A stretch of 64,000 bases of DNA from Escherichia phage F2: sequence record NC_054913.1; one strand, written 5' to 3'. The notes under the pieces were generated by a model. The model saw only the letters and a program-made list of their open reading frames with translations, did no database searches and had not been told where the DNA came from. Position numbers and translations under genes: made by a program. Shown here one piece after another: positions 12,343-17,615 of the stretch (positions within the stretch are counted from its first letter, which is position 1; every line of letters starts with the position of its first letter).

Positions 12343-12816
12343 ATGTTATTATCAGGCGCAAAATATAAAGAAGAAAAACAAAAATTTTATGATGCACAGA
12401 ACGGTAAGTGTCCTATTTGCCACCGTGAATTAGACCCTGATGTTCAAGGTAACCATCTTGACCACGACCACGAATTAAACGGGCCAAAAGCAGGTAGAGT
12501 TCGTGGGTTACTCTGTAATCTGTGCAACGCAGCAGAAGGCCAAATGAAGCATAAGTTCAACCGTTCTGGTCTTAAAGGCCGTGATGTCGACTACCTAGAA
12601 TGGCTTGAAGCTCTTCTCGCTTATTTGAAACAAGATTATTCTGATAATAATATCCATCCTAATTTTGTTCCAGACAAAACTAAAGAGTTCTCAAGACTAG
12701 GTAAAGAGGAAATGATGACCGAGATGCTTCAAAGAGGATTTGAATATAATGAATCAGATACTAAAACACAATTAATAGCTTCATTCAAAAAGCAGCTTAG
12801 AAAGAGTTTAAAATGA
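12343..12816 (+). CDS. 49: recombination endonuclease VII (Holliday junction resolvase)
   Basis: 157 aa, near-identical to remembered T4 gp49 (CPICHRELD...HLDHDHELNGPKAG). Confidence 0.95.
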   Translation: MLLSGAKYKEEKQKFYDAQNGKCPICHRELDPDVQGNHLDHDHELNGPKAGRVRGLLCNLCNAAEGQMKHKFNRSGLKGRDVDYLEWLEALLAYLKQDYSDNNIHPNFVPDKTKEFSRLGKEEMMTEMLQRGFEYNESDTKTQLIASFKKQLRKSLK

Positions 12817-13350
12817 AAATTGAAAAAGAAATTGAAGGATTAATTCATAAAACTAATAAAGATCTTTTGAACGAGAATGCTAATAAAGATTCTCGTGTTT
12901 TTCCAACTCAACGGGACCTTATGGCTGGTATTGTGTCTAAGCACATTGCCAAAAATATGGTCCCGTCTTTTATTATGAAAGCACACGAAAGTGGAATTAT
13001 CCACATGCATGATATTGATTATTCTCCTGCTCTTCCATTTACTAATTGCTGTTTAGTCGATTTAAAGGGGATGCTTGAGAATGGATTTAAATTAGGCAAT
13101 GCTCAAATTGAAACGCCTAAATCGATTGGTGTTGCTACTGCAATTATGGCACAAATTACTGCGCAGGTTGCTTCCCATCAATACGGTGGAACTACATTTG
13201 CGAATGTAGATAAAGTCCTTTCTCCTTATGTTAAACGCACCTACGCAAAACATATTGAAGATGCAGAAAAATGGCAAATCGCTGATGCGCTGAATTATGC
13301 CCAATCTAAAACAGAAAAAGACGTATATGATGCATTCCAGGCGTATGAGT
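12813..13350 (+). CDS. nrdD: anaerobic ribonucleoside-triphosphate reductase NrdD, exon 1
   Basis: Matches T4 NrdD N-terminal part; frame enters intron and terminates at 13358. Confidence 0.85.
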
Positions 13351-13561
13351 TAATTTAATTCAGGCTCATGTAAAACCGGTCTAAACGGGGAACCTCTCTA
13401 GTAGACAATCCCGTGCTAAATGTTCTTTTGAACTAAATGCCTAACGACTAACCGTGATGAATGTAGCGGTGTAGAATAGAAGCTAATGCTATTCGAAACG
13501 GCCGGCATCGAAAGATGAAGATATAGTCTAATCTGCATGGCGACATGCAGCAGTCATCTTG

Positions 13562-13569
13562 TATAAATA
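13562..13569 (+). promoter_or_regulatory. T4-type late promoter TATAAATA inside intron
   Basis: Exact TATAAATA about 30 nt upstream of intron ORF. Confidence 0.45.
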
Positions 13570-13598
13570 AGATTATCTTATGAATACGAGGTGAAACA

Positions 13599-14369
13599 AT
13601 GAAATGGATAAAAAGACGTTGTACTAAAATAAAAGATAAAGACGCATTTACATACTTAGTTAAGTTTTCTAATGGTGACATTTATATCGGTTATAAAAAA
13701 TTTAGAACAATTAAAAACAAGCCCACAAACTGGAAAACTTACACAACGTCATCTAAGTATATAAATGAACGCTTAAAAACTGATACACCTACTAAATGGA
13801 TAATTTTAAAAACATTTGATAGTTATAAAGATGCATTAAAACACGAAGAAGAGGTCATACGTAAATATTTTTATAGCAAAAAATGTTTAAATAAATCCAT
13901 AGGCGGTAAAAAGTTTTATAAGCATCCGGATACTGAAGAACATATTCAAAAATTAAGAGATGCTCATAAGGGTAAAGTGTTATCCGAATCTCATAAAAAC
14001 AATATAAAATCTTCTGTAGCTGAATATTATGCTAAAAACGGAAGATCTAAGGAACATGTGCAAAATAATATCAATAGTCGAAAAAGTAAAAAACAAGTAT
14101 CGATAAAGCTTAAAAATAAAACTTTTAGAAGTTTTAAAAAAGCAGCGGAATATTTAAATTGCACTGAAAGTGAAGTCGAAACTCATCCTCTTGTTTTGAG
14201 TATTAAGACTACTATTCATAAAGTTCCTGAATATGTGGTTGTTGACGGTATTAAGTATACGTCTTATATAGAAGCAGCTAAAGCGCTAAATTTTCATCCT
14301 AGCACTATAAAAGAACGTTGCATATCTATGGACTATCCAAATTTTGTTGTTTCATATAAACGGGCATGA
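13599..14369 (+). CDS. GIY-YIG homing endonuclease (I-TevII-like, intron-encoded)
   Basis: GIY-YIG-like motif DIYIGY near N-terminus; Lys-rich DNA-binding C-terminal half; located within nrdD intron as I-TevII is in T4. Confidence 0.75.
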   Translation: MKWIKRRCTKIKDKDAFTYLVKFSNGDIYIGYKKFRTIKNKPTNWKTYTTSSKYINERLKTDTPTKWIILKTFDSYKDALKHEEEVIRKYFYSKKCLNKSIGGKKFYKHPDTEEHIQKLRDAHKGKVLSESHKNNIKSSVAEYYAKNGRSKEHVQNNINSRKSKKQVSIKLKNKTFRSFKKAAEYLNCTESEVETHPLVLSIKTTIHKVPEYVVVDGIKYTSYIEAAKALNFHPSTIKERCISMDYPNFVVSYKRA

Positions 14370-14383
14370 ATTTGCGACTCATG

Positions 14384-15675
14384 CTGAATATAATGATGAA
14401 GTAAATACACTTTTCAGCTCTAATGGACAGACGCCTTTTGTAACAATTACATTTGGTACTGGAACTGACTGGACTGAACGAATGATTCAGAAGGCAATTC
14501 TTAAAAACCGCATTAAAGGTCTTGGTCGCGACGGAATAACTCCTATTTTCCCTAAACTTGTTATGTTCGTTGAAGAAGGTGTTAATCTTTATAAAGACGA
14601 TCCGAATTATGATATTAAGCAGCTTGCTCTAGAGTGTGCAAGCAAAAGAATGTATCCTGATATTATTTCAGTTAAGAATAATAAAGCTATCACTGGTTCA
14701 TCTGTTCCTGTTTCTCCAATGGGCTGTCGTAGTTTCTTGAGCGTATGGAAAGATTCGACTGGTAATGAAATTCTTGATGGACGTAATAATCTTGGTGTTG
14801 TAACACTGAATCTTCCTCGTATTGCGTTAGATTCTTATATTGGAACACAGTTCAATGAACAGAAATTTGTTGAATTATTCAATGAACGAATGGATTTATG
14901 TTTTGAAGCATTGATGTGCAGAATTAGTTCCTTAAAAGGAGTTAAAGCTACTGTTGCTCCTATTCTTTACCAAGAAGGTGCATTCGGGGTTCGTCTTAAA
15001 CCTGATGACGATATAATTGAGTTATTTAAAAACGGCAGAAGTTCAGTGTCCCTAGGATACATTGGTATTCACGAATTGAATATTCTTGTCGGACGTGATA
15101 TTGGACAGGAAATTTTAACTAAAATGAATGCTCGTCTTAAGCAGTGGACTGAAAGAACCGGTTTTGCTTTTAGCCTGTATTCTACTCCTGCTGAAAACCT
15201 GTGCTATCGCTTCTGTAAACTTGATACTGAGAAATATGGAAGTGTAAAAGATGTTACTGATAAAGGCTGGTACACTAATAGTTTCCATGTTTCAGTAGAA
15301 GAAAATATCACTCCGTTTGAAAAGATTTCTCGCGAAGCCACATATCATTTCATTGCGACTGGCGGACATATTTCTTATGTTGAACTTCCTGATATGAAAA
15401 ATAACCTAAAAGGTCTTGAGGCTGTATGGGATTATGCTGCACAACATTTAGATTATTTTGGTGTTAATATGCCAGTAGATAAATGTTTTACATGCGGAAG
15501 TACTCATGAAATGACTCCTACTGAAAACGGATTTGTTTGTTCTATTTGTGGAGAAACTGATCCTAAAAAGATGAACACAATAAGAAGAACATGCGGATAT
15601 CTTGGAACTCCTAGCGTTGTTCCATGGAATTTAGGTAAAATGAAAGAAATGGTAAAACGAGTAAAACATGCATAG
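14384..15675 (+). CDS. nrdD: anaerobic ribonucleoside-triphosphate reductase NrdD, exon 2
   Basis: Glycyl-radical C-terminal region with C-terminal Zn ribbon CFTCG...CSICG. Confidence 0.85.
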
Positions 15676-16498
15676 GTATTATATAATTTATAAAATAACA
15701 AATATAATTAATTCAAAGGAATATATCGGTGCGCATAGCACCGATAACATAAATGACGGTTATATGGGGTCAGGAACATTGATTCGTGCCGCTTTATTAA
15801 AATATGGTAGAAAAAATTTTAATAAAGAAATTTTACATGTTTTTGATAATGAAAAACAAATGTATGATAAAGAAGCTGAACTTGTAACCGAAGAGTATTG
15901 TCTAAAAGAAAATACATATAATATTAAACCTGGTGGAAAAGGTGGAACTGCCTATGAACAGACACTTGAACATCGCCGCAAAAATAGTTTAGCAAATAAA
16001 GGTAAAAAGAGAACAGAAGAAACTAAAATAGCTATTTCACGTGCTTTAAAGAAATATAAACGTACGCCAGAGCATCAAGCAAATTTAAATAAAGCCGTAA
16101 GCATAGCTATGAAGCGAAAAGATGTTAGAAGTAAATTAGCTGGAGAGCGGTCTGAGAAAGATAAATTATCTATATCAAACGGTGTTAAAAAATATTACAA
16201 TTCTTTGAGTGAAGAAGAACGCGAACTTCATCGCAAGCGAATTATTGAAGGTAAAAAGAATTCTCCCATGTCATTGGAATCTAGACAAAAGCTTTCAAAA
16301 GCTTTAAAAGGACTTCAAGTTGGTTCAAAAAATCCAATGTATGGAAAAATTTCTCCAACTAGCAAAACCGTTTCAGTTGACGGTATTAAATATGATTCAA
16401 TTAAAAAGTGCTCAAATGCCATAAAAGTTTCTAGACATCTTATACTAAAACGCTGTAATTCTACTGATGAAGCTTGGAAAAATTGGATATTATTATGA
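15668..16498 (+). CDS. free-standing GIY-YIG homing endonuclease (Seg-like)
   Basis: N-terminal GIY-YIG motif (YYIIYKITN...EYIGAH); basic C-terminal repeats; inserted between nrdD and nrdG. Confidence 0.75.
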   Translation: MHRYYIIYKITNIINSKEYIGAHSTDNINDGYMGSGTLIRAALLKYGRKNFNKEILHVFDNEKQMYDKEAELVTEEYCLKENTYNIKPGGKGGTAYEQTLEHRRKNSLANKGKKRTEETKIAISRALKKYKRTPEHQANLNKAVSIAMKRKDVRSKLAGERSEKDKLSISNGVKKYYNSLSEEERELHRKRIIEGKKNSPMSLESRQKLSKALKGLQVGSKNPMYGKISPTSKTVSVDGIKYDSIKKCSNAIKVSRHLILKRCNSTDEAWKNWILL

Positions 16499-16965
16499 AT
16501 TATGACAGAATATACCCGTGCTGCTTTGTTAATGGCCCTGGTTGCAGGGTCGTTCTTTTCGTTACGGGTTGTTTGCATAAATGCGAAGGGTGTTATAATA
16601 AATCAACATGGAATGCTAGAAATGGTATTCCATTCACTGGTGAAACACTAGAACAATTGATTGAATGTTTGAATAATGATTATATAGAAGGATTAACTAT
16701 AACCGGAGGAGACCCTCTCTATCCTGATAACCGAGATGTTATTCATCGCATTGCTCAAACAGTAAAAAATCTTTATCCCAATAAAAGCATTTGGTTGTGG
16801 ACAGGATATAAGTTTGAAGATATTAAACAACTAGAAATGCTTAAATATGTTGATGTTATTATTGATGGTAAGTATGAGAAAAATCTTCCGACCAAAAAGT
16901 TGTGGCGAGGATCAGATAATCAGCGACTTTGGTCAAATACCAATGGGGTGTGGAAACATGATTAA
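16495..16965 (+). CDS. nrdG: anaerobic ribonucleotide reductase activating protein (radical SAM)
   Basis: Cys cluster CLHKCEGC, TITGGDPL; position after nrdD. Confidence 0.9.
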   Translation: MNYDRIYPCCFVNGPGCRVVLFVTGCLHKCEGCYNKSTWNARNGIPFTGETLEQLIECLNNDYIEGLTITGGDPLYPDNRDVIHRIAQTVKNLYPNKSIWLWTGYKFEDIKQLEMLKYVDVIIDGKYEKNLPTKKLWRGSDNQRLWSNTNGVWKHD

Positions 16966-17079
16966 ATTGAATTATATTATGGATACTATAAATGATATGA
17001 TTTTTCATTTTGGTCCAGAATTTTATTCACAGTGTAGTTTAGTGCTTATCAATGCTTGGTTAACCAATTAAGGGTAAAT

Positions 17080-17295
17080 ATGTATAAATTTCGTAAAGGT
17101 TTAGCTGATTTTCTTACAACTGTAACGTTCTTTTTGTTTATGGCAGTTGGAGCTATTTTTCTTATTCCTTTTACTGGTGTATTTTTCGTGATTGGTTTAA
17201 TTTCTCCAGAAAAGGGTTTATCCTCCAGCGAATTCAATGAACGTTTGGACAAAATTACTAATAAACTGAATTCTGTTCTTGATAAAAAGGCTTAA
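17080..17295 (+). CDS. small hypothetical membrane protein
   Basis: ATG 17080 within track ORF 17056..17295; hydrophobic core. Confidence 0.45.
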   Translation: MYKFRKGLADFLTTVTFFLFMAVGAIFLIPFTGVFFVIGLISPEKGLSSSEFNERLDKITNKLNSVLDKKA

Positions 17296-17297
17296 TT

Positions 17298-17615
17298 ATG
17301 ATTAGTTTTGAGCGGTATGTAGTAGAGAGTTGGAATGGTTTTGATATGTTCGGTAATGACTATTATTTCTATGAATGTAGTCTGAACCCAAGCTTCTGGG
17401 CTGGACGTGAACAAGACCTCGAAGAAATCAACGCTCGTGCCGATTTGTTAGGTGAACTGCCTACGGTTTATTTTACCTTTGATGAATCCGGCTTCGTTAT
17501 CCAGGTTTATTTTCCTGAAGAAAACTCTGGTGAGGATCCTGTTAATCCTCCTTATTGGGCTTACCAAGGAATTATTTCTCGTGGAACAAAACTCGAACTT
17601 AAAGAACAAGATTGA
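17298..17615 (+). CDS. hypothetical protein
   Basis: 105-aa ORF. Confidence 0.5.
   Translation: MISFERYVVESWNGFDMFGNDYYFYECSLNPSFWAGREQDLEEINARADLLGELPTVYFTFDESGFVIQVYFPEENSGEDPVNPPYWAYQGIISRGTKLELKEQD

What the first reader, a model, noticed from the sequence alone, without database searches (positions are those of the whole stretch)
15668..16498. Free-standing GIY-YIG endonuclease wedged between nrdD and nrdG
A second GIY-YIG gene overlaps the nrdD stop and the nrdG start by 4 nt each. Together with the intron ORF this makes the anaerobic RNR locus a hot spot for selfish endonucleases.
Basis: partly seen in the sequence, partly recalled or inferred. Interest (0 to 1): 0.4.

Follow-up and report, generated by a model that had tools for sequence, protein, structure and literature searches.

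The report
Known phage homing endonuclease SegH
The gene wedged between the two anaerobic ribonucleotide reductase genes is SegH, a selfish DNA-cutting enzyme of T4-like phages that was named and tested in 2005, so the finding is correct but not new.

Summary
The ORF at 15668-16498 (+, 276 aa) is real. Its protein is 100% identical to SegH of phage RB3 (GenBank AY262138.2, ABI48949.1, "homing endonuclease"), and 71 phage records carry the gene at >=90% DNA identity. It lies between nrdD and nrdG. The overlap with nrdD is 8 nt (ATGCATAG), not 4; the overlap with nrdG is 4 nt (ATGA), as stated.

Related phages show four states at this junction: empty (most of about 900 records), segH (71), T4 mobC (32) and a longer HNH endonuclease (32).

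The mobile unit is larger than the ORF. It also carries a recoded nrdD 3' end and a variant nrdG 5' end. In the Moonvirus phage KM16 this cassette is 92-95% identical to the window, while the flanking nrdD and nrdG are only 71-78% identical.

The "hot spot" reading is right and already published: T4 has I-TevII plus mobC at the same locus.

Verdict: already known, low interest.

The parts
15668..16498 (+). segH coding sequence (276 aa plus TGA), a free-standing GIY-YIG homing endonuclease
   Evidence: ORF. 100% aa identity to RB3 SegH ABI48949.1. 71 phage records at >=90% nt identity. PHROG 314 'homing endonuclease' at 2.4e-60.
15668..15952 (+). N-terminal GIY-YIG catalytic domain (aa 1-95), with IIY at aa 6-8 and YIG at aa 19-21. 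Y8, Y19, G21, E69 and N85 are invariant in 89 homologues.
15953..16363 (+). Helical linker with NUMOD3-type repeats (aa 96-232)
   Evidence: Pfam NUMOD3 at 33.8 bits, above the cut-off of 20.4, at aa 200-228. Series of helices H100-H213 in the model.
16364..16495 (+). C-terminal I-TevI-like helix-turn-helix DNA-binding domain (aa 233-276)
   Evidence: Pfam PF20987 I-TevI_DNA-bd at aa 226-273, 21.1 bits, below the cut-off of 27. Foldseek hit 4 is 1I3J, the I-TevI DNA-binding domain, prob 0.96.
15560..15667 (+). nrdD 3' end that travels with segH. From about 15606 the last 22 codons are recoded (GTPSVVPWNLGKMKEMVKRVKHA* instead of GNPNERGFNLGKNKEIMHRVKHQ*), starting just after the glycyl-radical motif RRTCGYLG.
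   Evidence: The variant tail is found in 79 records, against 71 with segH. It is 95% identical in Moonvirus KM16, whose nrdD body is 71-78% identical.
16495..16560 (+). nrdG 5' end variant (PCCF instead of PCDF) that travels with segH. The same variant follows the 840-nt HNH endonuclease in phage 235Ecol030PP.
   Evidence: 92.9% identical in KM16, against 74.5% for the rest of nrdG.
12813..15675 (+). nrdD, the anaerobic RNR large subunit. Two exons (about 12813-13349 and 14396-15675) are split by a group I intron of about 1045 nt at the T4 site.
   Evidence: Pfam NRDD on both exon translations. Intronless RB3 nrdD aligns to 12800-13348 and 14396-15700.
13599..14369 (+). Intron ORF, an I-TevII-like GIY-YIG endonuclease (256 aa), with the late-promoter consensus TATAAATA at 13562
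   Evidence: 56% aa identity to T4 I-TevII at E 1e-101. PF19835 at 26.6 bits. TATAAATA site.
16495..16965 (+). nrdG, the anaerobic RNR activase (156 aa)
   Evidence: Fer4_12 at 1.8e-48 and Radical_SAM. N-terminus matches T4 NrdG.

Best explanation
The ORF is segH, the free-standing GIY-YIG homing endonuclease gene first described in phages RB3 and T6. It sits in the nrdD-nrdG junction of a T4-like coliphage (Tequatrovirus). The protein has the I-TevI-type modular build: an N-terminal GIY-YIG nuclease domain, an extended helical NUMOD3 linker, and a C-terminal helix-turn-helix DNA-binding domain.

Inferred mechanism: in a mixed infection SegH makes a double-strand break near the nrdD/nrdG junction of a co-infecting phage genome. 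Repair by recombination from the segH-carrying genome then copies segH and its flanking sequence into the cut genome (intronless homing with co-conversion).

The gene has no promoter, hairpin or spacer of its own. It is read from the nrdD transcript and is probably translated by coupling, because its start overlaps the nrdD stop and its stop overlaps the nrdG start. This arrangement also preserves nrdD-to-nrdG expression.

What is shown here: gene identity, fold, site polymorphism and cassette-like transfer. What is taken from the literature or inferred: cleavage and homing.
For: Identity: the protein is 100% identical to RB3 SegH, with the same gene neighbours and overlaps. T6 carries it too.

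Mobility signatures: the junction is empty in most of about 900 records, with ATGA joining nrdD and nrdG. It is occupied by segH in 71, by T4 mobC in 32 and by an 840-nt HNH gene in 32. The cassette is 98-100% identical between the window and RB3, while the adjacent nrdD is 92-94% identical. In Moonvirus KM16 the cassette is 92-95% identical against 71-78% for the flanks. Homologues at 47-50% identity also sit directly after nrdD in other T4-like contigs.

Expression: no late (TATAAATA) or middle (MotA-box) promoter lies in or just before segH, and there is no start-site hairpin (z +1.6).

[quoted passage not shown] 2005.
Against: Curated HMM thresholds are not reached for the catalytic domain: PF19835 scores 18.6 against 25, TIGR01453 scores 50.2 against 56.05, and PF01541 gives no hit. 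Sequence-only PDB searches reach I-TevI only at E 0.2. The canonical GIY-YIG arginine has no clearly conserved counterpart: position 40 is K, R or N across the family. The primary paper could not be read here. Activity, cleavage site and homing therefore rest on the GenBank annotation, citing reviews and my recollection of the abstract. The cleavage site in this genome is not known from my data.
Confidence: 0.93

Rival explanations
1. An inactive, decaying endonuclease remnant that is merely carried along, like T4's truncated I-TevIII.
For: Several genome records annotate a shorter gene starting at an internal ATG (735 nt in the RB3 genome and in HY03), which would lack the GIY and YIG motifs. 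There is no promoter of its own.
Against: The full 276-aa frame is open and 100% identical to the RB3 protein deposited as SegH homing endonuclease. All family-invariant residues are present. The frame is kept at 91% aa identity in a different genus. The short annotations are start-codon choices, not frameshifts, because the DNA is 99.9% identical.
Confidence: 0.04
2. A domesticated DNA-binding protein whose main role is now regulatory or competitive, for example repression of neighbouring genes or exclusion of rival phage markers, rather than its own spread.
For: I-TevI doubles as an autorepressor, and free-standing endonucleases cause marker exclusion (PMC2988022). The gene is tightly woven into the nrdD-nrdG operon by overlapping codons.
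Against: Most relatives do without it: the junction is empty in most of about 900 records. The cassette shows recent horizontal spread rather than vertical conservation. No operator-like site was identified here.
Confidence: 0.03
3. An intron- or intein-encoded ORF, part of a second self-splicing element rather than a free-standing gene.
For: NCBIfam's nearest model is 'group I intron endonuclease'. A true intron lies 1.3 kb upstream.
Against: It lies between two complete genes, not inside one. In empty-site phages nrdD and nrdG simply overlap by ATGA. No Rfam intron match was found in 12500-17500. There is no non-coding sequence on either side of the ORF.
Confidence: 0.005

Closest known systems
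SegH of phages RB3 and T6 (GenBank AY262138.2 / AY262137.2; Sandegren, Nord & Sjoberg, Nucleic Acids Res 2005, 33:6203)
   Same: Identical protein (RB3). Same position between nrdD and nrdG, same 8-nt and 4-nt overlaps, and same recoded nrdD tail.
   Different: Nothing in the gene itself. The genomic background differs: this window also carries the nrdD intron, which RB3 lacks. Flanking nrdD is only 92-94% identical to RB3.
T4 MobC and the 840-nt MobC-like HNH endonuclease (e.g. phage 235Ecol030PP, Yersinia phage PST)
   Same: Free-standing homing endonuclease genes occupying the same nrdD|nrdG junction, in the same orientation and overlapping both neighbours.
   Different: They belong to the HNH family, not GIY-YIG. 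They are inserted a few codons into nrdG, so they begin with a duplicated nrdG N-terminus MNYDR(I/F)Y. They leave the standard nrdD tail intact.
I-TevI (T4 td intron endonuclease; PDB 1MK0/1LN0 and 1I3J)
   Same: Same three-part architecture and fold: GIY-YIG domain, extended linker and C-terminal HTH.
   Different: I-TevI is intron-encoded. Identity is about 24% in the catalytic domain. I-TevI has an extra helix carrying R27, where SegH has the loop H23-T25-D30-Y32-GSG. The I-TevI linker has a zinc finger; SegH has NUMOD3 repeats.
T4 SegD (the name some RB-phage genome records give this gene)
   Same: Closest T4 paralogue tested here; a free-standing Seg-type GIY-YIG protein. The catalytic domains are clearly alike.
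   Different: Only 32% identical overall and 223 aa long. It lies between genes 23 and 24 on the opposite strand. The 'segD' label is a misnomer.
I-TevII (T4 nrdD intron endonuclease) and its 56%-identical counterpart in this window
   Same: A GIY-YIG-type endonuclease in the same RNR locus.
   Different: Intron-encoded, with its own late promoter. Only 29% identical to SegH over the C-terminal three quarters.

Membership tests
SegH (orthologue of the RB3/T6 gene) | Sequence identity to the deposited SegH protein | tested here: met
   276 of 276 residues identical to RB3 ABI48949.1.
SegH (orthologue of the RB3/T6 gene) | Located between nrdD and nrdG, same strand, replacing T4 mobC | tested here: met
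GIY-YIG nuclease superfamily | GIY and YIG motifs about 10 residues apart at the N-terminus | tested here: met
   IIY at aa 6-8 and YIG at aa 19-21. Y8, Y19 and G21 are invariant in 89 homologues.
GIY-YIG nuclease superfamily | Conserved metal-binding Glu and structural Asn downstream | tested here: met
   E69 and N85 are invariant (89/89). The profile alignment to 1MK0 puts them in register with I-TevI E75 (A in that mutant) and N90.
GIY-YIG nuclease superfamily | Conserved catalytic Arg on the first helix | tested here: inconclusive
   R40 is present in SegH, but the column is K 37, R 27 and N 8 across the family. The HMM alignment pairs it with I-TevI R47, not R27.
GIY-YIG nuclease superfamily | Three-stranded sheet plus helices fold | tested here: met
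GIY-YIG nuclease superfamily | Passing a curated HMM threshold for a GIY-YIG family | tested here: not met
   PF19835 scores 18.6 bits against a cut-off of 25. PF01541 gives no hit. TIGR01453 scores 50.2 against 56.05. Many close homologues do carry PF01541 or PF19835.
I-TevI-like modular homing endonucleases | NUMOD-type linker and C-terminal HTH DNA-binding domain | tested here: met
   NUMOD3 at 33.8 bits, above the cut-off of 20.4. PF20987 is sub-threshold at 21.1 bits. Foldseek hit to 1I3J at prob 0.96.
Free-standing homing endonuclease gene | Not inside an intron or intein; precise presence/absence polymorphism among close relatives | tested here: met
   Empty sites have the ATGA junction. 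segH is in 71 of about 900 records matching the locus. No intron model matched.
Free-standing homing endonuclease gene | Evidence of horizontal spread with flanking co-conversion | tested here: met
   The cassette is 92-100% identical, while flanks are 71-78% (KM16) or 92-94% (RB3).
Free-standing homing endonuclease gene | Site-specific double-strand cleavage near the insertion site, and preferential inheritance in mixed infection | not testable with these tools
   Reported for RB3 SegH in Sandegren et al. 2005. The title is verified in reference lists and the content is summarised in PMC2988022. The paper itself is not held.

The most novel reading that the evidence does not exclude
The transferable unit is not the ORF alone. 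It is a cassette of about 1 kb (window about 15560-16560) that brings its own recoded nrdD C-terminal tail and a variant nrdG 5' end. It has crossed genus boundaries (Tequatrovirus to Moonvirus). The same nrdG 5' variant lies downstream of the rival 840-nt HNH endonuclease. This suggests that successive endonucleases of different families have replaced one another at this site, and that the variant flanks are cleavage-resistant 'immunity' alleles. If this is not already documented in the 2005 paper, it would be a modest new detail about competition between homing endonucleases.
Probability: 0.25. Interest if true: 0.25.

Novelty: already known. Interest (0 to 1): 0.08.

Why it matters
It matters little beyond correct annotation. 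The gene is a textbook example of intronless homing in T-even phages. One practical point is that many GenBank genomes mislabel it as 'segD', 'hypothetical protein' or 'NUMOD3 motif protein', or start it at an internal ATG that removes the catalytic motifs. The cassette-level comparison also gives a clean in-silico illustration of co-conversion and of several endonuclease families competing for one intergenic site in an essential operon.

Tried and rejected
1. Single-sequence phmmer against PDB sequences gave only chance hits at E >= 0.14. A profile of 89 homologues found only the I-TevI catalytic domain, at E 0.2-0.4. Sequence alone therefore did not settle the fold; structure comparison did.

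2. Rfam at gathering thresholds found nothing in 12500-17500, not even the nrdD group I intron. This is not evidence against the intron. The intron is delimited by alignment to intronless RB3 and to T4.

3. I looked for expression signals specific to segH. There is no sigma-70-like site on the + strand in or before the gene. The nearest TATAAATA is the intron one at 13562. No MotA-box middle-promoter pattern lies on the + strand between 12725 and 16838. There is no RNA structure at the start codon. I therefore rejected the hairpin/late-promoter control that the distant homologues have.

4. The primary paper could not be read under three identifiers. Citing papers mention SegH only in their reference lists.

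5. I asked whether the recoded nrdD tail came from the distant SegH-carrying phages (L008, L011). It did not: their tails are of a third type.

6. I tested the 'segD' name used in RB-phage genome records. It is rejected, at 32% identity to T4 SegD.

Full report
**Observation.** The window carries a T4-type gene order: nrdC, gene 49 (endonuclease VII), nrdD, the ORF in question, then nrdG.
- An ATG-initiated ORF of 276 codons occupies 15668-16498 on the + strand, exactly as reported.
- Upstream is nrdD exon 2 (Pfam NRDD, 9.7e-123). Downstream is nrdG (Fer4_12, 1.8e-48).
- Reading the bases directly, the ORF's TGA overlaps the nrdG ATG as ATGA, a 4-nt overlap.
- Its ATG (15668-15670) lies 8 nt before the end of the nrdD TAG (15673-15675). 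The first overlap is therefore 8 nt, not the 4 nt stated.
- The listed nrdG ORF starts at a TTG at 16474, but comparison with T4 NrdG fixes the real start at ATG 16495.

**Identity.** A megablast of the ORF against 50,697 phage records found 71 records, 69 of them covering at least 80% of the query, all at >=90% identity.
- One is AY262138.2, "Bacteriophage RB3 NrdD, SegH, NrdG", with the product annotated "SegH, homing endonuclease". It has the same 8-nt and 4-nt overlaps.
- The translated window ORF is identical to that protein at all 276 positions. T6 has its own deposited segH.
[quoted passage not shown] I could verify it only through reference lists. The paper itself is not held.
- The T4 mobile-DNA review lists mobC as the occupant of the nrdG/nrdD junction in T4.
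- From my own memory of the abstract, not verified here: segH was found in three of 18 phages screened. The protein cut DNA close to its own gene, in both segH-containing and segH-less genomes. The gene homed in mixed infections.

**Is it a GIY-YIG enzyme?** Curated sequence models are equivocal.
- NUMOD3 passes its cut-off (33.8 bits against 20.4).
- SegE_GIY-YIG (18.6 against 25), I-TevI_DNA-bd (21.1 against 27) and TIGR01453 "group I intron endonuclease" (50.2 against 56.05) all fall short.
- PHROG 314, "homing endonuclease", matches at 2.4e-60.
- A database search gave 602 homologues, many carrying PF01541 or PF19835.
- In an alignment of 89 of them, Y8 (GIY), Y19 and G21 (YIG), E69 and N85 are invariant. 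So is a subfamily signature: H23, T25, D30, Y32 and G34-S35-G36.
- The canonical arginine is not clearly conserved. Position 40 is K, R or N.

Structure comparison settles the question.
- Against PDB sequences, the profile finds only the I-TevI catalytic domain, and only weakly (E 0.2).
- The AlphaFold model has mean pLDDT 86.6, with values above 95 for residues 1-90. Its topology is beta-beta-alpha-beta-alpha.
- Foldseek ranks the I-TevI catalytic domain (1MK0, 1LN0) first, at probability 1.0 and target TM 0.59-0.64. The I-TevI DNA-binding domain (1I3J) comes fourth.

**Comparison with genomes lacking the insert.** A query spanning the nrdD 3' end, segH and nrdG matched 900 records, and 60 of them were listed at even steps down the ranking.
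- In most of the listed T4-like coliphage records the two flanks lie about 940 nt apart. In those genomes nrdD and nrdG directly abut, sharing ATGA.
- segH occupies the site in 71 records.
- T4-type mobC (633 nt, HNH) occupies it in 32 records.
- A longer 840-nt HNH gene occupies it in 32 records.
- Both HNH genes begin with a duplicated nrdG N-terminus, MNYDR(I/F)Y, so they inserted a few codons into nrdG. segH sits at the nrdD stop.

**The mobile unit is larger than the ORF.**
- In segH-carrying genomes the last 22 codons of nrdD are recoded: GTPSVVPWNLGKMKEMVKRVKHA* instead of GNPNERGFNLGKNKEIMHRVKHQ*. The change starts right after the glycyl-radical motif RRTCGYLG.
- The first ~55 nt of nrdG are also a distinct allele, PCCF instead of PCDF.
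- The variant nrdD tail occurs in 79 records, close to the 71 with segH.

| Segment (window coordinates) | Identity to RB3 | Identity to Moonvirus KM16 |
|---|---|---|
| nrdD body | 92-94% | 71-78% |
| nrdD 15441-15667 (KM16: variant tail 15606-15667 only) | 98-99% | 95% |
| segH | 99.9% | 92% |
| nrdG first 55 nt | 94.6% | 93% |
| rest of nrdG | 97.3% | 74.5% |

(All values.)

This pattern is what horizontal spread with co-conversion of flanks predicts.
- RB3 has segH without the nrdD intron, whereas HY03, SP21535 and this window have both. The two elements therefore assort independently.
- More distant SegH homologues (47-50% identity) also sit immediately downstream of nrdD in other T4-like contigs. 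The family's association with the nrdD 3' end is therefore old.

**Expression.**
- The distant homologues have a ~50-nt spacer that folds into a strong hairpin (-23 to -25 kcal/mol, z -6 to -7.7). The hairpin buries the GAGG ribosome-binding site and carries AATAAATA in its loop. This is the classic T-even endonuclease control described in the review.
- The window's segH has none of this. There is no spacer and no structure at the start (z +1.6).
- No TATAAATA lies nearer than the intron's at 13562.
- No MotA-box pattern lies on the + strand between 12725 and 16838, and no sigma-70-like site precedes it.
- I infer a promoterless cassette read from nrdD transcripts and translated by coupling at the overlapping stop and start codons. 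This is an inference.

**The "hot spot" interpretation.**
- The intron ORF at 13599-14369 is a GIY-YIG-type protein, 56% identical to T4 I-TevII. It sits in an intron at the T4 site and is preceded by TATAAATA.
- The locus does therefore hold two selfish endonuclease genes.
- T4 does too (I-TevII plus mobC), and the literature already treats RNR genes as preferred targets.

**Verdict.** The element is a known, experimentally characterised gene.
- Some genome records call it "segD". That name is wrong: it is 32% identical to T4 SegD, which lies elsewhere in the genome.
- Records that start the gene at an internal ATG delete the catalytic motifs.
- Novelty: already known. Interest: low.
- The only possibly unreported details are the cassette's recoded flanks, its cross-genus transfer, and the nrdG allele it shares with the rival HNH cassette.

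Noticed in passing
window 13599-14369 (intron about 13350-14395): The nrdD intron endonuclease here is only 56% identical in protein to T4 I-TevII, although the intron is at the same site. The same intron allele is 99.6-99.8% identical in phages HY03 and SP21535. It is a distinct I-TevII-like allele. Rfam did not detect the intron at gathering threshold.
   Followed up: partly
window 13433-13474: A 42-nt stretch in the 5' part of the nrdD intron is 97.6% identical to sequences in T5-like phages (SBA-1781, allfine, REP12), next to or within annotated HNH homing endonuclease genes. A 130-nt stretch is 81% identical to Campylobacter phage A138. It may be a shared group I intron core.
   Followed up: no
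L002 768-1607 (phage 235Ecol030PP); L005 719-1558 (KK4): An 840-nt HNH endonuclease, a longer relative of T4 mobC, occupies the same nrdD|nrdG junction in 32 records, including 10 Klebsiella phage records at 80-90% identity. It begins with 13 duplicated nrdG codons of the 'empty-site' type. It is followed by an nrdG whose 5' end is the segH-type allele.
   Followed up: partly
window 15606-15675: The NrdD C-terminal tail after the glycyl-radical motif is recoded in segH-carrying phages: 13 of the last 22 residues differ from the Tequatrovirus consensus. It matches neither the consensus nor the tail of distant SegH-carrying phages. Its origin is unknown, and any effect on NrdD function is untested.
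   Followed up: partly
L008 3949-4000; L011 364-416: Distant SegH homologues are preceded by a strong hairpin (z -6 to -7.7) that sequesters the GAGG ribosome-binding site and has AATAAATA in the loop. This is the late-promoter/hairpin switch typical of T-even endonucleases, and it is absent from the window's segH.
   Followed up: yes
L012 4097-4831 (RB3 genome KM606994.1); L013 4563-5297 (HY03): Public genome records annotate this gene as 'segD', 'hypothetical protein' or 'NUMOD3 motif protein'. Some start it at an internal ATG (735 nt), which cuts off the GIY and YIG motifs.
   Followed up: yes
window 8000-30000: No record in the phage collection matches this stretch better than about 97% over 93% of its length (nearest are vB_EcoM_KAW3E185 and TH58). 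The individual cassettes (segH, intron) are 99.6-100% identical to other phages. The window comes from a mosaic Tequatrovirus that is not itself in the collection.
   Followed up: partly
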